Origin: an uncultured Candidatus Saccharibacteria bacterium
Lineage (GTDB): Bacteria > Patescibacteriota > Saccharimonadia > Saccharimonadales > JAGQNJ01
Length of the DNA stretch: 64,000 nt
Direction: 5' to 3'
Assembly: GCA_964577565.1 (NCBI GenBank)
Contig: CAZNZL010000001.1
Span: 142,566 to 206,565 of the forward strand
In this document: in pieces, positions 30,008 through 50,830 of the stretch
Layout: every line of letters begins with the position of its first letter
Numbering within the stretch: the first letter of the stretch is position 1
Notes under the pieces: model-generated
Told to the model about the DNA's origin: nothing
Database searches by the model: none
What the model saw: only the letters and a program-made list of their open reading frames with translations
Translations under genes and position numbers: made by a program

Positions 30008-30517
30008 TTATAGGGCTGCTTCTAGTGCTGCCCATTCGGCGTTGGTGTAATCTTCTGGCAAATCAACGCTTACTTGATCACCAGGTTTAGCTTTAAAATA
30101 GGTTACGCTGGCCAACAACACCCGAAACTTCTTTTTATCTATCTCGACATAATATTGACCGTTTTCCAACGTTAGCATACCGACTTTTTGCACGCGCGGG
30201 ACGGGACCAATTTGCTTGTATAAAAACGTACCGTCATCGGCAATCGTTAATTTCAGAATGTCACCCTGTACTAACTTTGACTTGGATGCATAGTTTGCTG
30301 GTACCGGGTATGTTTTGCCGTCGCTGCCTACCATTGCCTGGCCGTCAAATACGCCTTCTATAATTTTACCGATTGGCTCATCCTGAAGCTTTGCTGCTTC
30401 CGGCTTGTCATCACCCACTACGCTAACAAGGAGTTCCTTTGCAGCGGCAAGGCTCGTCTCCGCTTCTTCAATTAAAATTCTTAAGCGCTTAATTTGTTTT
30501 TCGGGTAAATCTGGCAT
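30008..30517 (-). CDS. hypothetical 169-aa protein
   Basis: Clean ORF between the rplL terminator and dnaX; no motif recognised. Confidence 0.65.
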   Translation of the reverse strand: MPDLPEKQIKRLRILIEEAETSLAAAKELLVSVVGDDKPEAAKLQDEPIGKIIEGVFDGQAMVGSDGKTYPVPANYASKSKLVQGDILKLTIADDGTFLYKQIGPVPRVQKVGMLTLENGQYYVEIDKKKFRVLLASVTYFKAKPGDQVSVDLPEDYTNAEWAALEAAL

Positions 30518-31075: not shown

Positions 31076-31600
31076 TTAGGCAGTTGCCTTTGCTTCTATA
31101 CCGTCCAGTATTGCATGTAGGTTACCGGAAAGTGCGTTGGTAACATCATTGAGTGGTGAAGCCAATATAGCTATCACTTGGGCAATAAGCTCGTTCTTGC
31201 CCGGTAGGTTTGCTAATGCCTTGACGTCATCAGCACCGAAAAACTGACCTTCTGCCGTGATAGCGCCAACAAATTGTAGGTTTGGGTTGTTTTTGGCGAA
31301 TGCTGCAAGTACCTGAGCAGGTGCTACCTCATCGGCGTTATTAAACGCGTATAGAAGTTGTCCTCGTAAGGCGCTTACGTCGGCAGTTTTGAGCTGCTCG
31401 TTGCTTTCAATTGCCTTAATGACGAGTCGGTTTTTTATTACCTTAACAACAGTGCCGTTTGCTTTCGCGTTACGACGTAGCTCTTGCAAGGCTTTAACGC
31501 CCGTACCTTGATAAGCGGCAGCAACTGTTAACTTTGATTCGCCAAGTAAAGTGGTTACTTCACTTACCACTGACTGCTTTTGTTCTTTTGTTAAAGCCAT
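31076..31600 (-). CDS. rplJ: ribosomal protein L10
   Basis: [12 protein letters not shown]...; SD AAAGGA before ATG 31600 (the track's upstream start is unlikely). Confidence 0.9.
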
Positions 31601-31808
31601 AGGGTATCCTTTACTTGTTATAGTTGTATCGACCAAATTTTAAATGTTCTTTTACCAAAAAAGCCTTTGGCATTCCAAAGACTTTTATACGATTTTTGCT
31701 TAAACGGCTTCTCGTACCTCGGTAGCATTCTTAATTCGCTCGTGAGCGAACGCTACTGTCTTTGGTAAATAACATCTTAATTTTAACAAATTATTATTGT
31801 TTCGTCAA
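31601..31808 (-). promoter_or_regulatory. rplJ promoter plus L10-leader-like 5' UTR with an internal hairpin and U-run
   Basis: Minus strand: TTGACG (31808-31803), 17 nt, TAAAAT (31785-31780). Leader hairpins TTCGCTcacgAGCGAA and CTTTGGaatgCCAAAG followed by T6 (31657-31681). Not checked with a covariance model. Confidence 0.45.
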
Positions 31809-32410
31809 TCGGTGTATTCTTCACACTCAACCGCAACAGTAGCACTGAGCACAGGAGCTGCTCGATGTTGATTTAAGAAATCTAATGTAGATCGCATTTG
31901 TCGTTGATGAGACGTTGGTAACTCAGATTGGATAACGGGGCCGGTGCGGTTACATTCAGTCGACAGGCCTTCGGGTAACTCAAATTGTCGAATAATGGCC
32001 TGGGATTGTTCGTCATAAGAAACGACATGTAAGCCTGGAGTCCATGTGTCCAGTGGATTAAAAGCACGAACGAAGATTACATCATCATTACTGGCTGGCC
32101 GTAAATGCCGACGAAAAATTGGCTGAACGTCCATGGTTGTCCGTTGCAAATCCTCAGACACAACAATCACACGAAACCATGGATGATCATTGCCGGGTTT
32201 TGTGCTACGAGGCCTCCCTTCATTCAAAAGTGCCCACGAGTCGATGGTTCGTTTTTTTGCCTGCCAACCATGTTCTTCAGCCAGTCGGTGTAATTGTTGA
32301 AACGATGCTTCATCGTATTGAGCTACATACTTGCGAGCAGCCTCTGCCAGGCTGTGTGTTCCTTCATCTGTCATATTGTTAGATCGTTCATAACTATGTT
32401 GCGCGGCCAT
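31805..32410 (-). CDS. hypothetical 201-aa protein (orphan)
   Basis: ATG 32410 preceded by GAAGGAA. The stop TGA is embedded in the -35 of the rplJ promoter. Confidence 0.6.
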   Translation of the reverse strand: MAAQHSYERSNNMTDEGTHSLAEAARKYVAQYDEASFQQLHRLAEEHGWQAKKRTIDSWALLNEGRPRSTKPGNDHPWFRVIVVSEDLQRTTMDVQPIFRRHLRPASNDDVIFVRAFNPLDTWTPGLHVVSYDEQSQAIIRQFELPEGLSTECNRTGPVIQSELPTSHQRQMRSTLDFLNQHRAAPVLSATVAVECEEYTD

Positions 32411-32428
32411 TATGTGTTCCTTCAATCT

Positions 32429-32451
32429 AAAAACCCCGCTTGAGCGGGGTT
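32429..32451 (-). terminator. hairpin plus U-run located 18 nt upstream of the ORF start at 32410 (leader terminator/attenuator)
   Basis: Minus strand: aaCCCCGCtcaaGCGGGGttttt. Confidence 0.65.
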
Positions 32452-32548
32452 GTTGCTTTACTTATTTGCTATAACAAACACTACACCCGCTTGCGCGTGT
32501 AATCAATAATCTTAGAGATAATTATTGCTCGTGTCATTACAAGCAACA

Positions 32549-32577
32549 TTTATACGCTTAACTATTGCTATTGTCAA
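32549..32577 (-). promoter_or_regulatory. sigma70-like promoter for the 31805-32410 gene
   Basis: Minus strand: TTGACA (32577-32572), 17 nt, TATAAA (32554-32549). The -35 overlaps the stop codon of the upstream ORF. Confidence 0.55.
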
Positions 32578-32873
32578 GCAGGTAGATTGAGTCGCTGAGC
32601 ATTGGTTGTCATAGTGATAGTGTGCGGTCTGTCACCCTCCTGACTTTCGGACCCGTCAAAAGGCACGATAACGATAGTATCCGAAATAGGTCCTCGAATG
32701 TTGTTATCTGCGGGATATGTTCTTTGTTCGTACATATCAGGGCCAGCTACTTCAACGGTTGTTTTGTGTGTAGCGCCTGCAACTTGCGTGCGCACACCGT
32801 TGGTTATATGTGTAACGTCTACATTGCTTGAACGCTCCAAATAGTCTTTTACTTTTTCTGAAATTGCCATCAT
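32574..32873 (-). CDS. hypothetical 99-aa protein (orphan)
   Basis: SD AAGGAAAC before the ATGATG start; no motif recognised. Confidence 0.6.
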   Translation of the reverse strand: MMAISEKVKDYLERSSNVDVTHITNGVRTQVAGATHKTTVEVAGPDMYEQRTYPADNNIRGPISDTIVIVPFDGSESQEGDRPHTITMTTNAQRLNLPA

Positions 32874-32900
32874 GTTTCCTTATATCAAATTAATTGCGTT

Positions 32901-32982
32901 AAAAAAGCCCAATGTTGATCGGGCTGTGCTGGTCGGTAGAATGTATTTACCGTTCAGGCTTCGCGTATGCTAAGCACAGCCC
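32901..32982 (-). promoter_or_regulatory. leader with mutually exclusive helices (10-bp long-range helix versus a short hairpin plus U6) upstream of the 32574-32873 gene
   Basis: Plus 32921-32930 gggctgtgct is the perfect reverse complement of plus 32973-32982 agcacagccc. The gggct at 32921-32925 is also one arm of the hairpin agccc/gggct (32906-32925), which is followed on the minus strand by T6. Confidence 0.5.
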
Positions 32983-33037
32983 TTTAAGGCCGAGGAGGAG
33001 GTCAAGACCAAGCTGTACTTTATAGATCATTAATGGC

Positions 33038-33065
33038 ATTATAGCAAAATTAGGCTACTTGACAA
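33038..33065 (-). promoter_or_regulatory. sigma70-like promoter for the 32574-32873 gene
   Basis: Minus strand: TTGTCA (33065-33060), 16 nt, TATAAT (33043-33038). Confidence 0.55.
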
Positions 33066-33087
33066 GTTTTTTGAAAGAGCGTACATT
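33059..33087 (+). promoter_or_regulatory. divergent plus-strand promoter sharing the -35 region with the minus-strand promoter
   Basis: TTGACA (33059-33064), 17 nt, TACATT (33082-33087). Confidence 0.45.
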
Positions 33088-33212
33088 AAATACTCGTGAA
33101 TACATTTCAACACATTATTGCTAAGATCTGCATGGGCCGCAACTACGGTTTTGTGCTCGTGGTTGCATAATTTGTTGGAGTAGGTTCGCAAGCAAACAAT
33201 TTGGTAGACAAC

Positions 33213-33246
33213 AAACCGGACTCCAACAACAAGGTCCGGTTTTTTA
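33213..33246 (+). terminator. intrinsic terminator about 150 nt downstream of the plus-strand promoter (end of an sRNA, or leader terminator of the 33373 gene)
   Basis: AAACCGGACtccaacaacaagGTCCGGTTTttt. Confidence 0.7.
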
Positions 33247-33372
33247 CTGCGGCGAATCGATGATTGTCCTCGGTTGAGAATAATCATGGGAGCACCGCTT
33301 CCATATAAGTCTGTCCTGCACTGCGTAGGATAGCCATCCGAAAGGATGACCTTAACAAGGGGGAAGAATAGT

Positions 33373-33567
33373 ATGGTTGACGTGTATCTCGATGAGGTAG
33401 CCGAAGACCGGGTCAGGCGCATGAGTGAAGCAGCGCGCGTTGACCGGGCCATGCGCCGTACTCGTCGCTTGCTCCAGTCACCGATGGCGGCTGATGCAAC
33501 TCTGCGTCAACGCTGGGAGAACAAGCTTCGCAATCAAGAGCGTCAGTTGTCATCACTTTGTCGCTAG
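33373..33567 (+). CDS. hypothetical 64-aa Arg-rich helical protein (orphan)
   Basis: ATG 33373 preceded by AAGGGGGAAG. Sequence MVDVYLDEVAEDRVRRMSEAARVDRAMRRTRRLL... Confidence 0.45.
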   Translation: MVDVYLDEVAEDRVRRMSEAARVDRAMRRTRRLLQSPMAADATLRQRWENKLRNQERQLSSLCR

Positions 33568-33744
33568 ACGACAAAGCTATTGATATGGTGGGGCTGCAGG
33601 GTTTGACCTTGCAGTAAGCAGTTTGTGATAACAACTGTTTTCTGATGATTCATCAGGACCCACCACACCCATACCGCTTACCACTGCTATAACTATAATC
33701 AGACATATTCTTCCCCCTAAATAAACAAAATTAGGAACGTATTT

Positions 33745-33969
33745 ATGAATCAGAATGGGGAATTTGAGGCCACCGGCGATGCAATAATAGAATCTCTAGA
33801 ACGCAACTGGCAAGAGGTGCGTCGGAATGGAATTGTTAGTAGTGTTATAGTTGAGCCCTCAGCTTTAATACTGAGTGTTCGCGATGAAACCTGGGACGGT
33901 ATTAAATCAGGTCGTCTTCAACGAACGGATACACCTCCCGAACACCACTATGTTTATGAAGATGTATAG
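33745..33969 (+). CDS. hypothetical 74-aa protein (orphan)
   Basis: Weak SD (AGGAA). Convergent with the tmk-thyX stop, 2 nt away. Confidence 0.45.
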   Translation: MNQNGEFEATGDAIIESLERNWQEVRRNGIVSSVIVEPSALILSVRDETWDGIKSGRLQRTDTPPEHHYVYEDV

Positions 33970-33971
33970 CT

Positions 33972-36290
33972 TTAAGACTTGTCTAGTTGTTTTAATTTAA
34001 ATTGTGTATATCGTTCAGCTGCCAACCGTGTTAATTCAGGGTCCTCACCCTGATTTACAAACTTCATGGCTTCAGCAATTAATGGATGTACTTCTGCAAG
34101 CTTTTCGTGCATTTGTTGTACGAGTTTTCGATAGCCAGGGTGGCCTTGTGGTGAGGTTCGTAGCTCATGAAGGTGAAATGCTTCGCGGGCATTATACGTT
34201 ACCTTCCAGCGCATTTTATGACCAAGTAGTGTTGCATATTGGGCTTCAAGTTCGTACCCAGCTGCCTGAAGTTCGCTGTAGAGCTGAAGGCTACTATCGA
34301 AACACTTTTCAAACAAATCAACCAACCCGGCCTCTTCAATTAATTTTGGAATATCATAGCCGTAACGCGGGGTTAAATACTGCCATTCAAGGTCATCAAC
34401 GATGCGGTGGCGCTGTAGGTCTCTAAAGATACCGTAGTCACATATTAAATCCCAGCTATAATGAGCTTTTTCTAAGGCTCTGCCTGGCTTGTGCCGGCGA
34501 TTTAACCGCTCACCCATATAACTTCTAAAGATTTCTACGCGCTTATCGTATGGCAAATTAAGGACGCTACGATTTAAGTCTTCCAGTGGTAGGTTGGTGT
34601 GTTCATATAACATATCTGCAACCAAATCGAGCTCGTTGCGTGGCCAATAGCTCGTTAGGGTGACGGCTTCGTTTGCTTCGCTATAATGGCTTGGTACTAC
34701 TTCTTGGGCGTGTTGCTTCATGGCGGCGCGGGTGTTTGACCAATAGGCAATAGTAGCACCGCCTCGATCAGCTTTATCGGCTCGTTCTAAGAAAGTTGAG
34801 ACTACTTTTCGACTTTCATCAAGCAGGGCCTGACCTACGTCACGTGCTTCTGGCAAATCATCGCTAAGTAAGTGCATAATTAAGCTTTCTAAGGCCTGGC
34901 CAGAAGCATAAATGCCAACCGTTGACGTCGTAGCAACGGGCAGAACCGGACGTACGGCATCACATGCCTGAGCTCGGGTAGCTCCCTTCCACGCTAGATC
35001 TTGCTCTTTTTTTGGAACGTTAGAGTTTTTTCGTACGTGATCAGTAAGTTTGTGAACCATTTCAGAATATAAATCAAAAATTTTGTCCATGCTGTCGATG
35101 TATTTTTGTTTTACATCATCATTAAAGTGTTTTGGCGTTAAGTAGCGGTAATTGCCGTTTTTGTCTTTTTGGTCAAAATATATGTAGCGAGTTGACTGTT
35201 CTAAATATGAAGCCAATCGGCCCCACTCAAGCTTTTTGGTTAGCAAATTCGAGGCGTTTTCTACCACAACATGTTGCCCTGCAAGCTGCTGTACGGAGTC
35301 ATCTCCGTAGGCAGTAATAACGCGGCGCAGCAAATCCTTGTCTTTATCTGCTTTATTGGCAAACTCATCTAAGATTGTTATACGCATATCATCGCCGCGA
35401 CGGCTTAAACGCGCCATAGCCGCAGCAATTGTGACCGTGCTTAGCTCGTCGGTAAACGCATAAACATTGTCAGTTGTATTTGTAACGGCTTTTTGAAGAT
35501 ATGCCTTGCCATTATCGGTGATTTCATAGCCGTTTTCAGTCTTACGCAGCAATTCAGTTTCGTCTTGTTGCTTATTGCTGGTTTTTAGCATAGGTTTGAC
35601 TTTCTCCCATATTAAGTTATGAATTTCATCAATACTGAGTAGTTTGCCGTCACGTATACTGTCAATACGCTGAAAGTCTTTTGGAAACAACTCGCATAAA
35701 TCTTTATATACTTCAAGTGAGCGCTCAATGTGTGCTTCATCAGCTTCATGAATGTCTTTTTTGACATGCGTGCTTGAGTTCTCTTTTGCAGCTAGCCGTT
35801 CTTTGATGACTTCAAGTGGTGTATATAAAACAAAGCTTAAGTTTGGACGGGGTATGCCGAGCATTTCAAACTCTAAATTATCGAGCCAAATAAAATACCC
35901 CCGCCGTTCTTCTGGGTTGTTAAATTTTGTACCTTGGTGCGCCATGTTTGAGCCCACATACCGGTCGCACAACACAATTTTACCGGCCCTAAGAGCGTCT
36001 TTGATTTCTTTGGCGGCCTGGTAACGGTCTAAGGCATAAAACATCGAGCTCTTGTACGGCCCTACCTCGTTAGCCTCGCCGTACTTACCTGCGAGGTATT
36101 CGCGAACAAAGTAGCTTGATTCTTCATCGTAACGAGGAAAATGAATATTCAGGATATCATAGCCCTCGTCGGTTAGCTTTTTTTGCAGCGCTTCATACTG
36201 CGTAGATTTACCTGACCCGTCAGTACCCTCAATGACGATGAACAAACCAGTTTCTTCCCCACCCTTGTTAAGTGTGGAAGAATTATTCAT
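33972..36290 (-). CDS. fusion protein: N-terminal thymidylate kinase plus a roughly 540-aa tandem ThyX-like (flavin-dependent thymidylate synthase) module
   Basis: Tmk part: IVIEGTDGSGKSTQ P-loop and CDRYVGSNMAHQ. C-terminal part: LASYLEQSTRYIYF (S..S.RY block) in the first repeat, FRDLQRHRIVD (RHR) in the second, and FHLHELRTSPQGHPGYR. ATG 36290 overlaps the dcd stop by 8 nt. Confidence 0.75.
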   Translation of the reverse strand: MNNSSTLNKGGEETGLFIVIEGTDGSGKSTQYEALQKKLTDEGYDILNIHFPRYDEESSYFVREYLAGKYGEANEVGPYKSSMFYALDRYQAAKEIKDALRAGKIVLCDRYVGSNMAHQGTKFNNPEERRGYFIWLDNLEFEMLGIPRPNLSFVLYTPLEVIKERLAAKENSSTHVKKDIHEADEAHIERSLEVYKDLCELFPKDFQRIDSIRDGKLLSIDEIHNLIWEKVKPMLKTSNKQQDETELLRKTENGYEITDNGKAYLQKAVTNTTDNVYAFTDELSTVTIAAAMARLSRRGDDMRITILDEFANKADKDKDLLRRVITAYGDDSVQQLAGQHVVVENASNLLTKKLEWGRLASYLEQSTRYIYFDQKDKNGNYRYLTPKHFNDDVKQKYIDSMDKIFDLYSEMVHKLTDHVRKNSNVPKKEQDLAWKGATRAQACDAVRPVLPVATTSTVGIYASGQALESLIMHLLSDDLPEARDVGQALLDESRKVVSTFLERADKADRGGATIAYWSNTRAAMKQHAQEVVPSHYSEANEAVTLTSYWPRNELDLVADMLYEHTNLPLEDLNRSVLNLPYDKRVEIFRSYMGERLNRRHKPGRALEKAHYSWDLICDYGIFRDLQRHRIVDDLEWQYLTPRYGYDIPKLIEEAGLVDLFEKCFDSSLQLYSELQAAGYELEAQYATLLGHKMRWKVTYNAREAFHLHELRTSPQGHPGYRKLVQQMHEKLAEVHPLIAEAMKFVNQGEDPELTRLAAERYTQFKLKQLDKS

Positions 36291-36987
36291 ATTTAATACC
36301 TTTAATGGCCTCCGGCTTGATTCTCGTGTCTTTGTACGCACGTGGCAGCATTTGATCCGGGCTCCAGGCTGAAACAATACTTTCAATATTGTTACTAGTG
36401 TTTGACTGATATTTGCCGCTCAATTTTTTATACTCTTGGTCAACGGGCCCTGTTTCGTAAAAGACCATTTGTGCAATACGTTCGCCTACCGGTAAGACGA
36501 CACTTTCATGTTGGTTCATGTTGTAGATCTCCATGGTCCACCTATTAACATAACCCGGGTCGCCCCAACCGGCATCAAGGCAAACTGCTACACCGTTTCT
36601 GCCCCATGTGCTTCGAGCCTGCATAGTGCTTGTTCCTGGTGCTTTGATACCAATAAATTCATGAGTATGAGCCAATATGCGCTCGTGCGGCCGCAACACA
36701 ATAATAGGATGGTCTGGTGGAATATTTTTAAATAGAGCGCGCCCGTGAGCTTTTGCCCACTGTTTGTGAATCTCTGCTTTGAACGGGCCGCTAAAATAAT
36801 TATCTACTGACTGTTTATCAAAAGGGTTATAAAACCCACCTTGGCTCGGACGCTCGGTGCGGTAATACCAATAGCCCAACGTAACATCTACGCTGCTGCC
36901 AGCAATGTTTTTCTCGGTATAGGGGTGAAAAACTATATGCCCGTCTTTAACAGCTTTTTTTATTTGTCGGTTACTATATACTCCCAT
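36283..36987 (-). CDS. dcd: dCTP deaminase / dUTPase-superfamily protein
   Basis: SNRQIKKAVKDGHIVFHPY, GSSVDVTLG, ERIAQMVFYE. ATG 36987 with GAGGGAG upstream (the alternative ATG 37014 is possible). Confidence 0.82.
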   Translation of the reverse strand: MGVYSNRQIKKAVKDGHIVFHPYTEKNIAGSSVDVTLGYWYYRTERPSQGGFYNPFDKQSVDNYFSGPFKAEIHKQWAKAHGRALFKNIPPDHPIIVLRPHERILAHTHEFIGIKAPGTSTMQARSTWGRNGVAVCLDAGWGDPGYVNRWTMEIYNMNQHESVVLPVGERIAQMVFYETGPVDQEYKKLSGKYQSNTSNNIESIVSAWSPDQMLPRAYKDTRIKPEAIKGIKYE

Positions 36988-48709: not shown

Positions 48710-49732
48710 TCATGAACGTAACCCTATGGCTTTTTGGACACGCAGCAATGTTTCATTAGCTACTTTGTTCATAGCTTGTTCTGATGCTTCAAGTTTTTGC
48801 CGGAGGGCTTGCTCATCCACATCTGTAAGTCTGGCCTGAAAGTTTCGTAAAAAATTTGCAACTGCATCAGCAACCGCAGTCTTTAATGGTCCGTATTGAG
48901 TTTGCCCAATAAACGCATTCTGATCACCGCCTAAGAACTTATAGATATCCAGTAGGTTGCTGATACCTGGCTGTTTTTGATAATCATAAACTATCTTTCC
49001 TAATGAATCTGTAGTGGAGCCCATAACTTTTCGATGTGCATTTTCTGGCGTATCGCCCAAGAATATAACCCCTTTACTGCTACCTTCGGATTTACTCATT
49101 TTTTTCTCTGGGTTAACTAAATCTCTGACGCGTAAACGCTGCTGTTGGCTCGCAAAAGCAATCTGCTCTTTTTCTGGCGCAGGAGGTGTGAATAGCTCAC
49201 CAAATTTGTTATTCATTCTAATCGCAATATCTCGCGCAAGTTCAACGTGTTGAGTTTGGTCTGCACCAACGGGTACATATTTTGCGCCATACAATAAAAT
49301 ATCAGCCGCCATGAGGACGGGGTAATCAAATAGCCCAACGCTGACACTACTCTTGCCTTGCCCTTTTTCTTTGAATTGCGTCATGCGATTTAATTCACCG
49401 ATATACGTAAAACTATTTAAAATAATAGTTAGCTCGCTGTGTGCAGGGATGAAGCTTTGACGGTATAAATAGGTGTCTAACTGATTAAGGTCAAGGCCTG
49501 CCGCAATATAGAGCTTGAGATTATGCATGGTTTGTTCATACAATCGTGAATGGTCAATTGGTGTCGTAAAACTGTGTAAATCTGGTACAAATAGATTAAT
49601 TTGATATTCGCCCGTATATTTCTTTTGCAGTTCCACCATAGGGAGCAACGCCCCTAGATAGTTACCGAGGTGCAAGTCATTATTTGCTCTTAAGCCAGTT
49701 AGAATTACTGGTTTACTCATATTTAACTTCAT
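48710..49732 (-). CDS. trpS: tryptophanyl-tRNA synthetase
   Basis: LHLGNYLGAL (HIGH-like), GADQTQH, KMSKS. The start could be 49720. Confidence 0.93.
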   Translation of the reverse strand: MKLNMSKPVILTGLRANNDLHLGNYLGALLPMVELQKKYTGEYQINLFVPDLHSFTTPIDHSRLYEQTMHNLKLYIAAGLDLNQLDTYLYRQSFIPAHSELTIILNSFTYIGELNRMTQFKEKGQGKSSVSVGLFDYPVLMAADILLYGAKYVPVGADQTQHVELARDIAIRMNNKFGELFTPPAPEKEQIAFASQQQRLRVRDLVNPEKKMSKSEGSSKGVIFLGDTPENAHRKVMGSTTDSLGKIVYDYQKQPGISNLLDIYKFLGGDQNAFIGQTQYGPLKTAVADAVANFLRNFQARLTDVDEQALRQKLEASEQAMNKVANETLLRVQKAIGLRS

Positions 49733-49744
49733 TATAGCGCATAT

Positions 49745-50656
49745 TTATGCAAAGTATGGTGTAGAATCTGTGGCACGGATTGGTGCTGTAATTTGGCGGA
49801 TTCGTGCACGTTTGATTATTGTTACATATTGTTTTGCAATGTCGGGTGAGACGGGTGGGTCAACTGGGCTTTCAAGATTGCTTGCCTCACACAGTACCGC
49901 GGCGGGTGCGTAGCCACTGGTAGCTAACTCGGCGATGTGTCGCAGGGCGCGTTCTTGTGCAATAGCTGACTTTTGGAATTCGCCAGCAGGGTCATGGGCC
50001 ATTTCTGACCCATGAGCGGCATCAACGACCATTAAACCATTAGTAGCGGTGTAGGCTTCAATATAGAGTTTTTCCCACGCTTCTGGTGTTTTTGCAGCTT
50101 CTCCGCCACGAAATACTAAGAAAACTGGTGCTCCTGCGTCTCCGCGTGCAGCGTTTAACCGGTCAACCGTTATTAATGCAGGTTCAACTTCGCCTGACAA
50201 AGGATTCTTCTCACCTAATGGTATAGCAGGATCCTCTAGGGCTATTTCTTCTTTTTCATCCTCGTCTTCAAGGCGACTACCCAACCACCCAAGTGCTATT
50301 CTTGAGCCGTACCGTACCACGTGTTCTAGTCGCCCAAGCTCCATCGCAACATTGCCGCGCAGTTTTGCTTGCTTATCGATGCGAGCAAACGCACCAACTG
50401 GATCCGTTGTCTCCATGCCAAACCAACTTGTCGGCAAGGTACGCGGTTTCCAGACGCACATACGCTCTAACGTTGCATCGATAACTTCTTCTTCAGCCGT
50501 AAGTGCACACGGTCCTTGTATATCAATAAAGCCCCGGCCCGACATAGTTTTTGTAACAAGATTACGATGGTAATCTCGGCGCTCTTCTAACTCAGGCGTG
50601 AATTCAAACATGTCATGCAATTCTTCTGCCGTTGGTGTTTCTGGTGCAAATTTCAT
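49745..50656 (-). CDS. divergent DAHP-synthase (AroG-like class I) family protein
   Basis: By-eye alignment to E. coli AroG blocks: IDIQGPCA (GPCS), VWKPRTL (KPRTT), WLGSR (GART), LGEKN (GFKNG), FRGGE (LRGG), VVDAAHGS (IDFSHANS), LCEAS (VESH). SD GGAAAGGA. Confidence 0.5.
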   Translation of the reverse strand: MKFAPETPTAEELHDMFEFTPELEERRDYHRNLVTKTMSGRGFIDIQGPCALTAEEEVIDATLERMCVWKPRTLPTSWFGMETTDPVGAFARIDKQAKLRGNVAMELGRLEHVVRYGSRIALGWLGSRLEDEDEKEEIALEDPAIPLGEKNPLSGEVEPALITVDRLNAARGDAGAPVFLVFRGGEAAKTPEAWEKLYIEAYTATNGLMVVDAAHGSEMAHDPAGEFQKSAIAQERALRHIAELATSGYAPAAVLCEASNLESPVDPPVSPDIAKQYVTIIKRARIRQITAPIRATDSTPYFA

Positions 50657-50675
50657 ATATTCCTTTCCTAGTATT

Positions 50676-50830
50676 AAAAAAACCGCCGTGTGGCGGTTTG
50701 GTTTAACAATTTATTACAAATCTAAGCCGAACGCCACACGTGTGGGTTTGTAAACCAAACGTAAAAATAGTTTACCGTTCGACGTATCATAACGACTATG
50801 ACAATACTATATAAAGGTTGCTCACGTCAA
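50676..50830 (-). promoter_or_regulatory. candidate promoter plus structured leader ending in a strong hairpin/U7 20 nt upstream of the DAHP-synthase-like gene
   Basis: Minus strand: TTGACG (50830-50825). A 10-bp long-range helix, gtttggttta (50760-50751) with taaaccaaac (50705-50696), encloses a CCACACGTGTGG palindrome. Then AACCGCCacacGGCGGTTttttt (50698-50676). Confidence 0.45.

What the first reader, a model, noticed from the sequence alone, without database searches (positions are those of the whole stretch)
32429..33065. Promoter, structured leader, hairpin+U-run and SD architecture in front of orphan genes (candidate attenuators or riboswitches)
Three genes of unknown or odd function start 18-32 nt downstream of a hairpin followed by a U-run. 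A sigma70-like promoter lies 110-170 nt further upstream. So the hairpins look like leader terminators rather than terminators of the preceding gene.

Gene 32574-32873 (best supported):
- Promoter TTGTCA, 16 nt, TATAAT at 33065-33038.
- A perfect 10-bp long-range helix (32973-32982 with 32921-32930).
- The helix's 3' strand contains one arm of the hairpin agccc/gggct+U6 (32901-32925). The two structures are therefore mutually exclusive, as in a riboswitch expression platform.

Gene 31805-32410:
- Promoter TTGACA, 17 nt, TATAAA at 32577-32549.
- Hairpin CCCCGC/GCGGGG+U5 at 32429-32451.

DAHP-synthase-like gene: see 50676-50830.

The leaders of the first and third genes share the 10-mer GAACGGTAAA on the minus strand (plus tttaccgttc at 32947-32956 and 50771-50780). 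Several leaders also contain a CT(A/T)AG(A/C)(A/T)T element.

The rplJ leader in the same region has the same layout, consistent with the known L10 leader.
Basis: partly seen in the sequence, partly recalled or inferred. Interest (0 to 1): 0.65.

Follow-up and report, generated by a model that had tools for sequence, protein, structure and literature searches.

The report
Leader-peptide attenuators in a Saccharibacteria genome
The hairpin-plus-U-run leaders are most likely classical ribosome-mediated transcription attenuators: each starts with a tiny, almost leaderless reading frame rich in leucine, isoleucine or tryptophan codons, which is a known kind of switch found here in new, unannotated families in a parasitic, amino-acid-dependent bacterium.

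Summary
They are conserved as units in related Saccharibacteria. No Rfam family matches them, apart from the neighbouring L10 leader.

- Leader A: 33030-32947, MIYKVQLGLDLLLGLKGLCLAYAKPER, Leu-rich. The frame is open in 14/14 homologues.
- Leader B: 32537-32481, MTRAIIISKIIDYTRKRV, Ile-rich in 7 genomes.
- Leader C: 50790-50722, MIRRTVNYFYVWFTNPHVWRSA, two Trp codons in 5 genomes.

In each leader, a segment at or near the short ORF's 3' end can pair with the terminator's 5' arm. This antiterminator pairing is conserved, with compensatory changes.

Links to the matching amino acid exist. Leader C precedes trpS. Leader A precedes a LeuA-like gene in one relative. A B-like leader precedes ilvA in another.

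In this window, A and B control fast-evolving proteins of unknown function. Gene B has syntenic remote homologues.

Verdict: these are leader-peptide attenuators, not riboswitches. They are new members of a known kind. A fourth unit lies on the + strand at 33059-33245. Nothing here was tested experimentally.

The parts
33038..33065 (-). Promoter of leader A: -35 TTGTCA at 33065-33060, -10 TATAAT at 33043-33038. The -35 box overlaps the -35 box of the divergent + strand promoter.
   Evidence: Scan gives 11/12 matches with TG before the -10 box. TTGTCAAG and the -10 box are conserved in 4 genomes.
32947..33030 (-). Short ORF A (leader peptide, 27 codons): MIYKVQLGLDLLLGLKGLCLAYAKPER. Its ATG lies 7 nt after the -10 box, so the mRNA is leaderless. 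The Leu run CTC CTC CTC is at 33000-32992.
   Evidence: The frame is open in 14/14 family members. The +1 and +2 frames are open in 1 and 2 of 14. Leu/Ile/Val codons interchange at the conserved positions. The closest relative, L167, has 10 Leu encoded by mixed synonymous codons.
32973..32982 (-). Segment 2 of leader A (GGGCUGUGCU, codons 17-20). It is the 5' strand of the antiterminator helix Pa. Alternatively it pairs locally with CGGCCU (32992-32987) or with AAGUACAGC (33020-33012).
   Evidence: Compensatory changes occur in L002 and L014.
32921..32930 (-). Segment 3 of leader A (AGCACAGCCC). It is the 3' strand of Pa, and its last five bases form the 5' arm of the terminator.
   Evidence: Pa is 94% paired in 5 window-type members and 93.7% paired in 9 other members (helix 1).
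32901..32925 (-). Intrinsic terminator of leader A: stem 32925-32906, T-run to 32901.
   Evidence: It is conserved in L002, L081, L165 and L167.
32574..32873 (-). Gene A (98-99 aa, function unknown), controlled by leader A. SD AAGGA at 32881-32877.
   Evidence: Only a self hit among 5.8 billion proteins. Codon-usage score 0.307 per codon, similar to real genes. Its C-terminus resembles the 116-aa ORF that follows leader A in L165.
32549..32577 (-). Promoter of leader B: -35 TTGACA at 32577-32572, -10 TATAAA at 32554-32549. It overlaps the stop codon of gene A.
   Evidence: Read from the sequence. GCTTGACA and GTATAA are invariant in 3 genomes and also present in L081, L165 and L167.
32481..32537 (-). 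Short ORF B (leader peptide, 18 codons): MTRAIIISKIIDYTRKRV. Ile codons are at 32525-32517 and 32510-32505. Segment 1 is UACACGCG (32501-32494). Segment 2, with core GCGGG (32490-32486), overlaps the last codons and the stop.
   Evidence: Seven genomes keep an Ile-rich ORF. The first five have 5-7 Ile in 16-17 codons (binomial P 1e-4 to 6e-3). L165 and L167 each have 4 Ile. The best upstream partner of the terminator's 5' arm is this GCGGG segment in all 5 members tested.
32429..32451 (-). Intrinsic terminator of leader B: stem 32451-32432, T5 at 32433-32429.
31805..32410 (-). Gene B (201 aa), a member of a small, fast-evolving family of unknown function. It is controlled by leader B and runs directly into the L10 leader and rplJ-rplL.
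33059..33245 (+). Fourth unit (D), divergent from leader A. Promoter TTGACA-17-TACATT at 33059-33087. GTG short ORF at 33096-33170 (MNTFQHIIAKICMGRNYGFVLVVA). Antiterminator segment TTGTTGGAGT at 33172-33181. Terminator stem 33216-33239 with T-run 33240-33245.
   Evidence: The downstream orf64 (33373-33567) is conserved in relatives.
50673..50830 (-). Leader C. Promoter at 50830-50801. Short ORF at 50790-50722 (MIRRTVNYFYVWFTNPHVWRSA). Terminator stem 50699-50680 with T-run. It lies upstream of the 303-aa gene (49745-50656) and trpS (48710-49732).
31648..31783 (-). Known L10 leader upstream of rplJ. It is a neighbour, not part of the new families.
   Evidence: Rfam RF00557, 56.4 bits against a gathering score of 44.

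Best explanation
Leaders A (33065-32901) and B (32577-32429), and leader C (50830-50673), are ribosome-mediated (leader-peptide) transcription attenuators.

**Proposed mechanism**
1. Transcription starts 7-11 nt after the -10 box, essentially at the start codon of a 17-27-codon ORF. This ORF is translated without a Shine-Dalgarno sequence.
2. When charged tRNA is plentiful (Leu for A, Ile for B, Trp and other aromatics for C), the ribosome runs to the stop codon. Segment 2 is then either covered by the ribosome or recaptured by segment 1.
3. The terminator (segments 3:4 plus the U-run) then forms, and RNA polymerase stops 6-32 nt before the gene's start codon (6 nt counted to an upstream TTG for gene B, 21 nt to its ATG).
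4. When the cognate aminoacyl-tRNA is scarce, the ribosome stalls on the codon run just upstream. Segment 1 is masked and segment 2 is free.
5. Segment 2 then pairs with the terminator's 5' arm (antiterminator 2:3), and polymerase reads through into the gene.

**Shown here**
- Conservation of the promoter, the ORF frame, the codon enrichment, the three alternative helices and the terminator.
- Links to genes of the matching amino acid (trpS, LeuA-like, ilvA) in this genome or in relatives.

**Inferred, not shown**
- The transcription start site.
- Translation of the short ORFs.
- Stalling.
- Starvation-dependent read-through.

**Targets**
In this window, A and B control fast-evolving lineage-specific proteins (genes A and B). 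Read-through from B would continue into the L10 leader and rplJ-rplL.
For: **1. Conservation as units.** Only the leader stretches align with the nearest relatives; the ORFs between them do not.

**2. Short ORFs.**
- Leader A's frame is open in 14/14 members, against 1/14 and 2/14 for the other two frames.
- Starts lie 7-10 nt after a -10-like hexamer.
- CTC, ATT and GTC codons interchange at the run positions, which points to selection on the amino-acid class.
- L167 has 10 Leu written with 5 different Leu codons.
- Five B peptides carry 5-7 Ile in 16-17 codons (P 1e-4 to 6e-3). L165 and L167 carry 4 each.
- C peptides carry 2 Trp and 6 aromatic residues in 20-21 codons in 5 genomes.

**3. 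Alternative RNA pairings.**
- In 9 A members, the off-state (Pa + Pc + terminator) is 93.1% paired, with 6 pairs changed on both sides (0-1 of 500 shuffles reach this).
- The competing antiterminator is 93.3% paired, with 3 compensatory pairs. Slid controls give 23-51%.
- L087 shows a three-way compensatory change across segments 2, 3 and 4.
- In B and C, the best upstream partner of the terminator's 5' arm is always the segment at the ORF's 3' end (dG -10.5 to -16.3, z -1.8 to -4.0).

**4. Genes of the matching amino acid.**
- trpS lies downstream of C (TIGR00233, 270 bits).
- DAHP synthase plus trpS lie downstream of C homologues.
- A LeuA-like gene follows A in L002.
- IlvA follows a B-like leader in L008.

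**5. Ribosome-mask folding.** The window A terminator probability falls from 0.96 to 0.22 with the A site on D10/L11. The C terminator falls to 0-0.15 on Y8-W12.

**6.** No Rfam family matches.
Against: - No experimental data exist. The transcription start sites, translation of the short ORFs and premature 3' ends are all unverified.
- Equilibrium ribosome-mask simulations show no switching for window B, and inconsistent results for many A homologues. B's antiterminator core is only 5 G-C pairs against an 8-bp terminator.
- In A members outside the window's subgroup, Leu is not significantly enriched (4-5 of 26). The motif LGLxGLCF is conserved beyond what codon-counting needs, although these bases also form helices Pa and Pc.
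- Within the window's own subgroup, Pa is almost invariant, so it carries little covariation.
- The genes controlled in this window have no known link to Leu or Ile.
- The published actinobacterial ilvB/leuA leader peptides did not behave as strict attenuators on mutation (PMC1262725).
Confidence: 0.78

Rival explanations
1. The leaders are metabolite-binding riboswitches. A conserved aptamer would bind a small ligand and toggle the terminator, and the short ORFs would be accidental.
For: There are conserved, mutually exclusive helices with a possible pseudoknot (Pa plus antiterminator) and a covarying hairpin. The downstream genes are varied, as seen with some general-signal riboswitches.
Against: There is no Rfam hit even at E <= 10. 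The reading frame is kept in 14/14 members despite indels. Synonymous and class-conserving codon replacements occur. Three unrelated leaders are each enriched in a different amino acid that matches trpS, leuA or ilvA in this genome or in relatives. Start codons sit at a fixed 7-11 nt from the -10 box.
Confidence: 0.05
2. The units are independent small-protein or small-RNA genes, each with its own promoter and terminator. They could be functional micropeptides, a type I toxin with a divergent antitoxin RNA, or trans-acting sRNAs. The downstream ORFs would be expressed only by incidental read-through.
For: The A and D peptides are conserved beyond their codon runs (LGLxGLCF; YGFVLV) and are fairly hydrophobic. 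A and D are transcribed divergently from overlapping -35 boxes. Attenuator-derived RNAs and peptides with trans functions are known (PMC6614838).
Against: The B and C peptides are not hydrophobic. No antisense overlap exists between A and D beyond the promoters. An SD and start codon sit at a fixed short distance after every terminator. Segment 2, which competes for the terminator arm, is conserved and covaries. This has no role in a simple gene terminator.
Confidence: 0.1
3. The short ORFs are stalling sensors of another kind. The stall would depend on an antibiotic or on the nascent peptide (as with erm, bmrCD or tnaC) rather than on tRNA charging, and would induce the downstream unknown genes.
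For: The genes controlled in the window have unknown function. The A and D peptides have conserved residues that are not the putative regulatory amino acid.
Against: There are links to trpS, DAHP synthase, LeuA-like and IlvA genes. B and C show clear single-amino-acid enrichment. No resistance-type gene lies downstream.
Confidence: 0.05
4. The hairpins are ordinary terminators of the upstream genes, and the promoter-like hexamers are chance matches.
For: Hairpin B lies 123 nt after gene A's stop and would also end gene A's transcript. Promoter-like matches in the region are no more frequent than in shuffles.
Against: No coding gene precedes hairpin A for about 900 nt; orf137 scores as non-coding at -0.036. 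The promoters are conserved base for base in relatives. There is no room for another promoter between the hairpins and the genes.
Confidence: 0.02

Closest known systems
Classical leader-peptide attenuators of Proteobacteria (trpL, leuL, ilvL/ivbL, pheL, and pheM of pheST)
   Same: A short ORF with a run of codons for the sensed amino acid. Four-segment 1:2 / 2:3 / 3:4 alternative pairing. An intrinsic terminator just before the first gene. Control of an aminoacyl-tRNA synthetase, as in pheM-pheST. This description of the known systems rests on established knowledge, plus PMC1183508 for the principle.
   Different: The short ORF has no Shine-Dalgarno sequence; it starts 7-11 nt after the -10 box. 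The sequences are unrelated: there is no Rfam hit to the Leu, Trp or other leader models. In this window, A and B precede lineage-specific proteins of unknown function rather than biosynthetic operons. The organism is a Saccharibacteria (Patescibacteria/CPR) epibiont.
Actinobacterial attenuators and the LEU element (PMC1262725), including predicted attenuators of trpS and leuS in Streptomyces and ilvB leader peptides
   Same: Leader peptides with Leu or Ile/Val/Leu runs followed by terminators. An attenuator upstream of trpS. In the LEU element, a Leu-codon run can pair with the SD of leuA and a pseudoknot is proposed. Family A likewise has a CUC run complementary to the downstream GGAG/GAGAA SD, and a possible Pa-plus-antiterminator pseudoknot. 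One member precedes a LeuA-like gene.
   Different: Homology to the LEU element was not tested because no model was available. The Leu-run:SD pairing was seen only by eye. The family A terminator and antiterminator are clear, whereas LEU elements lack obvious terminators.
Mycobacterial leaderless polycysteine short-ORF attenuators (bioRxiv 10.1101/834739)
   Same: Leaderless short ORFs as the first cistron, whose translation senses one amino acid and controls downstream genes.
   Different: Those sense Cys. I did not read the paper beyond its abstract, so whether they use an intrinsic terminator was not compared. The leaders here carry canonical hairpin-plus-U-run terminators.
L10 leader (Rfam RF00557)
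   Same: The same promoter, structured leader, hairpin-plus-U-run and SD layout, and a position immediately downstream of gene B.
   Different: It is an r-protein autoregulatory leader with no leader peptide. It is a confirmed member (56.4 bits) and unrelated in sequence to A, B and C.

Membership tests
Ribosome-mediated (leader-peptide) transcription attenuator | A short ORF in the leader, conserved in frame | tested here: met
   A: 14/14 frames open, against 1/14 and 2/14 for the other frames. B: 7 genomes. C: 5 genomes. Actual translation cannot be tested here.
Ribosome-mediated (leader-peptide) transcription attenuator | A run or enrichment of codons for one amino acid (the regulatory codons) | tested here: met
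   B: 5-7 Ile in 16-17 codons in five genomes (P 1e-4 to 6e-3), and 4 each in L165 and L167. C: 2 Trp plus 4 Tyr/Phe. A, window subgroup: 7-10 Leu, including 3-5 in a row. A members of the other subgroup show mixed L/I/V runs without significant Leu excess.
Ribosome-mediated (leader-peptide) transcription attenuator | An intrinsic terminator between the short ORF and the first structural gene | tested here: met
   Stems of 8 bp followed by T5-T7 lie 21-32 nt before the start codons.
Ribosome-mediated (leader-peptide) transcription attenuator | An antiterminator (2:3) that competes for the terminator's 5' arm, conserved or covarying | tested here: met
   A: 93.3% paired with 3 compensatory pairs; slid controls 23-51%. 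Pa in the window subgroup is 94% paired. B and C: the partner is always at the ORF's 3' end, z -1.8 to -4.0.
Ribosome-mediated (leader-peptide) transcription attenuator | An anti-antiterminator (1:2) placed where a stalled ribosome would mask segment 1 | tested here: inconclusive
   Helix Pc is 100% paired in 9 A members. Local 1:2 hairpins exist in all B members. Equilibrium ribosome-mask simulations support window A and C, but not B or many A homologues.
Ribosome-mediated (leader-peptide) transcription attenuator | Controlled genes concern the sensed amino acid | tested here: inconclusive
   Met for C (trpS; DAHP synthase in relatives). For A only in L002 (LeuA-like). For B only in L008 (IlvA). 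Genes A and B in the window have unknown function.
Ribosome-mediated (leader-peptide) transcription attenuator | Read-through increases on starvation for the amino acid | not testable with these tools
   This needs Term-seq or reporter assays.
Riboswitch or T-box (any Rfam cis-regulatory family) | A match to a curated covariance model or a conserved ligand- or tRNA-binding core | tested here: not met
   The gathering-threshold scan of the whole window finds only tRNAs and the L10 leader. A scan of 31500-34100 at E <= 10 gives only sub-threshold chance-level hits. The best is Trp_leader at 22.8 bits against a gathering score of 41, over the B terminator.
Type I toxin-antitoxin | A hydrophobic transmembrane peptide plus an antisense or complementary antitoxin RNA | tested here: not met
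   The B and C peptides are polar or charged. The A peptide has D, K or R within its hydrophobic stretch. The divergent D transcript overlaps A only at the -35 boxes. No RNA-RNA duplex search between A and D was run.
L10 leader (RF00557), neighbouring element only | A score above Rfam's gathering threshold, upstream of rplJ | tested here: met
   56.4 bits against 44, at 31648-31783, directly upstream of rplJ.
Actinobacterial LEU element (PMC1262725) | A upstream ORF with a Leu run, a pseudoknot, and a base stem between the Leu run and the SD of leuA | not tested
   A Leu-run upstream ORF is present, and one member precedes a LeuA-like gene. CUC-run:SD complementarity was noted by eye only. No LEU-element model or sequences were available for comparison.

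The most novel reading that the evidence does not exclude
An amino-acid-auxotrophic epibiont has kept a small set of leader-peptide attenuators (Leu, Ile, Trp, and a fourth of unclear specificity). It has re-used them as sensors of host-derived amino-acid supply. Their original biosynthetic targets (leuA, ilvA, DAHP synthase) survive only in some lineages. Elsewhere the same conserved switches now drive fast-evolving lineage-specific proteins, and B's read-through runs into the rplJ-rplL operon. Starvation for one amino acid would therefore induce host-interaction or survival genes and tune ribosomal protein synthesis. The abundant terminated leader RNAs or peptides might also act in trans, as rnTrpL does.
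Probability: 0.25. Interest if true: 0.75.

Novelty: new member of a known kind. Interest (0 to 1): 0.55.

Why it matters
Saccharibacteria and other Patescibacteria have tiny genomes and, to my knowledge, few known regulators and no amino-acid biosynthesis. How they sense nutrient supply from their host is largely unknown.

Four sequence-defined, conserved attenuators in one 64-kb window give concrete, testable sensors for Leu, Ile and Trp charging. They add unannotated RNA and short-ORF families that are absent from Rfam.

They also flag the fast-evolving proteins behind them (genes A and B, orf64) as candidates for a starvation response. The same switch sits in front of leuA or ilvA in some species and in front of unrelated genes in others. 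This is a clean natural example of a regulatory element outliving its original target.

I found no paper describing leader-peptide attenuation in this phylum in the library searched.

Tried and rejected
- **Rfam scans** at gathering threshold and at E <= 10: nothing but the L10 leader and tRNAs.
- **Pfam, NCBIfam and PDB sequence searches** of genes A and B, the 303-aa gene and the gene B family profile: no match.
- **AlphaFold2 single-sequence models** of genes A and B: pLDDT 38-40, unusable, so no fold search was run.
- **Equilibrium folding with a masked ribosome footprint.** I tracked the terminator probability in the full leader, and pairing of the terminator's 5' arm in transcripts cut at the loop. 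The result is clear for window A and C. It is flat for B and for members with 11-bp terminators, and noisy for the truncated transcripts. Equilibrium models are poor proxies for a kinetic switch, so I treat this as inconclusive.
- **Genes A and B as decayed leuA or ilvA:** rejected. There is no similarity, codon usage is gene-like, and gene B has its own family.
- **The shared 10-mer and the CTWAGMWT element as common motifs:** rejected.
- **orf137 (33039-33452) as a gene:** rejected, non-coding score. Its weak tblastn hits come from the conserved D element on the other strand.
- **A covariance model of family A was not built.** nhmmer plus anchored alignments sufficed.
Full report
**Context.** The window comes from a Saccharibacteria (TM7) genome. 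RplJ finds its best relatives (up to 79% identity) only in Saccharibacteria assemblies. On the minus strand the order is:
- a tmk-thyX fusion gene (33972-36386);
- a gap of about 2.3 kb;
- the L10 leader (Rfam RF00557, 31648-31783, 56.4 bits);
- rplJ, rplL, a conserved 169-aa protein and dnaX.

This order is conserved in relatives. The gap between thyX and rplJ varies from 1.4 to 4 kb, and most of its ORFs cannot be aligned between species. The finding lies inside this gap.

**Observation.** All the stated features are present: promoters, the 10-bp helix, both hairpins with U-runs, the SD sequences and the start codons. Two side claims fail:
- The shared 10-mer GAACGGTAAA occurs twice (0.22 expected). 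It lies in different reading frames in the two leaders and is absent from homologues.
- CT(A/T)AG(A/C)(A/T)T is not enriched: 21 found, 22.6 expected.

**The leaders are conserved and the ORFs behind them are not.** blastn of 31600-34000 against related loci aligns only three stretches apart from the L10 leader:
- 33303-32887, which ends just past hairpin A;
- 32558-32424, which ends just past hairpin B;
- parts of the first stretch again in L008.

Alignments show conserved -35 and -10 boxes, leader, terminator, SD and ATG in register. A different ORF follows in each genome. nhmmer over 160 related loci finds 14-15 members of family A and 5 close members of family B, plus 2 Val/Leu-rich cousins. 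Three further loci were added later.

**Each leader starts with a short ORF.**
- *Family A.* A frame anchored on the invariant core CTG TGC is open in 14/14 members, from a start codon 7-10 nt after a -10-like hexamer to a stop before the 3' strand of the long helix. The other two frames are open in 1 and 2 of 14.
  - The window peptide is MIYKVQLGLDLLLGLKGLCLAYAKPER (33030-32947).
  - At the run positions, CTC (Leu), ATT/ATC (Ile) and GTC (Val) replace one another. These are two-base changes that keep the amino-acid class.
  - The closest relative has ten Leu written with five different Leu codons.
- *Family B.* The window encodes MTRAIIISKIIDYTRKRV (32537-32481). Relatives encode MAHNIIISKIIAISQTRV, MTQSIIIAIIKNSPPRD, MTQHIIISKIINNSFQRA, MAQIIINQIIITSIHVRA, MTHYSIIVKIIETSHPRA and MAHQIIIALIKTSSMRD. 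The first five, window included, carry 5-7 Ile in 16-17 codons, against a genomic Ile frequency of 7.3% (P 1e-4 to 6e-3). The last two carry 4 each.
- *Leader C.* It encodes MIRRTVNYFYVWFTNPHVWRSA (50790-50722). Four relatives fetched through TrpS homologues have the same kind of ORF, with two Trp and four Tyr/Phe codons.

None of these start codons has room for an SD. The transcripts would be leaderless, or nearly so.

**Alternative RNA structures.**
- In nine A members the RNAalifold consensus is Pa (GGGCUGU:ACAGCCC) stacked on Pc (GCUUC:GAAGC), plus a terminator. It is 93.1% paired, with six pairs changed on both sides; 0-1 of 500 shuffles reach this.
- Segment 2 (GUUGAAGCCU) can instead pair with the terminator's 5' arm (AGGCUUCAAC). 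This helix is 93.3% paired, with three compensatory pairs. Slid controls reach only 23-51%.
- L087 changes segments 2, 3 and 4 together: GGAGCC / GGCUCC / UGGAG.
- A 5-bp hairpin, which often carries the stop codon in its loop, has a different sequence in almost every member (read by eye).
- In the window's own subgroup the terminator is built from the 3' strand of Pa. It is 94% paired in five genomes but almost invariant, with one compensatory change.
- In families B and C, the best upstream partner of the terminator's 5' arm is always the segment at the ORF's 3' end. In B this is GCGGG next to the stop codon. In C it is GUGGCG, which contains the second Trp codon. Values are dG -10.5 to -16.3 and z -1.8 to -4.0, with register shifts that preserve the pairing in L117, L162 and L163.

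**Does the geometry fit a stalled ribosome?** I masked a ribosome footprint and refolded.
- The window A terminator probability falls from 0.96 to 0.22-0.24 with the A site on D10/L11.
- The window C terminator falls to 0-0.15 on Y8-W12.
- B stays at 0.88-0.97.
- Across homologues the equilibrium model is inconsistent.

This does not decide a kinetic mechanism, so I count it as inconclusive.

**What is controlled.**
- *Leader C* precedes a 303-aa protein and trpS (TIGR00233, 270 bits). In two relatives a genuine DAHP_synth_1 protein sits between the leader and trpS. The window's 303-aa protein shares only a GPC...KPRT motif with it.
- *Leader A* precedes a LeuA-like HMGL-domain protein in L002.
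- *A B-like leader* in L008 precedes a full IlvA (PALP plus two Thr_dehydrat_C domains). That leader has ATA in place of ATG and a weak terminator.

Each of the three leader types is thus linked somewhere to the matching amino acid.

In the window itself, genes A and B have gene-like codon usage: 0.307 and 0.225 per codon, against 0.278 +/- 0.082 for real genes and -0.10 +/- 0.125 for decoys. They have no Pfam, NCBIfam or PDB match.
- A word-indexed search found only self hits.
- An exhaustive phmmer search found nine remote homologues of gene B at 30-39% identity, with motifs NPWFR, DVQPIF and FVR.
- Two of these, and one ORF in L081, sit in the same place: behind a B leader and in front of the L10 leader.
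- Gene A's C-terminus resembles the ORF behind leader A in L165.

These are therefore fast-evolving positional orthologues, not accidental ORFs.

**Interpretation.** The best explanation is leader-peptide (ribosome-mediated) transcription attenuation with leaderless short ORFs. A senses Leu (branched-chain amino acids in other members), B senses Ile, and C senses Trp and other aromatics. Riboswitch, small-protein or toxin gene, drug-sensing leader and plain-terminator readings fit less well, as set out in the rival explanations.

**Comparison with known systems.** The closest known systems are:
- the classical proteobacterial attenuators;
- the actinobacterial leader peptides, including predicted trpS attenuators and the LEU element, whose Leu run pairs with the leuA SD (PMC1262725);
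- the mycobacterial leaderless Cys short ORFs (10.1101/834739).

Family A's CUC run is complementary to the downstream GGAG/GAGAA SD, which recalls the LEU element. I saw this by eye only and could not test homology.

**Novelty.** The mechanism is textbook. The families, the phylum and the targets are new to the sources I could search. I therefore class this as a new member of a known kind. No step of the mechanism has been shown experimentally.

Noticed in passing
window 33059-33245 (+ strand), then 33373-33567 and 33745-33969: A fourth attenuator-like unit lies divergent from leader A. It has promoter TTGACA-17-TACATT and a GTG-initiated 24-codon ORF (MNTFQHIIAKICMGRNYGFVLVVA). This ORF is conserved in 6 genomes with synonymous changes. 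TTGTTGGAGT, right after the stop, pairs with ACTCCAACAA in the terminator, with compensatory changes in L001 and L008. It precedes a conserved 64-72-aa protein. No single amino acid is enriched, so its signal is unclear.
   Followed up: partly
window 33246-33372 (+ strand): A stretch of about 115 nt lies between the D terminator and orf64. It is conserved between the window and L002 (for example CATGGGAGCAYYGCTTCCA) but absent in L001 and L008, where the gene follows the terminator directly. Its function is unknown.
   Followed up: no
window 33972-36386 (- strand): An 804-aa fusion of thymidylate kinase (PF02223) and ThyX (PF02511), conserved as a fusion in relatives.
   Followed up: no
window 49745-50656 (- strand); L163 1048-2199; L164 1315-2466: The 303-aa protein between leader C and trpS has no family match. 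It shares a GPC...KPRT motif with 383-aa DAHP_synth_1 proteins that hold the same position in relatives. It may be a degenerate DAHP synthase. A DAHP synthase next to trpS is unexpected in organisms that, to my knowledge, lack aromatic amino-acid biosynthesis.
   Followed up: partly
L008 4226-5761; L002 4142-5317; L011 4567-5724; L014 5147-5773: The variable thyX-rplJ gap carries biosynthesis-type genes in some Saccharibacteria: a full-length IlvA, a LeuA-like protein lacking the C-terminal regulatory domain, and M20 peptidases. Other species have unrelated small ORFs there.
   Followed up: partly
L008 4061-4211: The B-like leader upstream of ilvA has ATA where relatives have the ATG start, and its terminator stem is degenerate. 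It may be a decaying or constitutively open attenuator.
   Followed up: no
L013 5221-5342; L099 1207-1312; L019 6588-6700; L028 103-215: Further leaderless-looking short ORFs followed by terminators and SD-led genes. L013 and L099 encode MQKLFVLSLVIVSPGG and MRKQLFLSVLVIARPGG (Val/Leu-rich), with the same GGCGGG antiterminator logic as family B. L019 and L028 encode the Ile-rich MSASKQIILSIILTTQPARR and MIIKITSNILNHHTTVNP. This kind of control may be widespread in the phylum.
   Followed up: partly
window 30008-30517 (- strand): A 169-aa protein between rplL and dnaX is conserved at 65-84% identity in 63 of 80 related loci but has no Pfam family.
   Followed up: no
window 31780-31808 (- strand): A promoter-like site (TTGACG-17-TAAAAT, with TG) for the L10 leader overlaps the stop codon of gene B. 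rplJ-rplL can therefore be transcribed both from its own promoter and by read-through from attenuator B.
   Followed up: no
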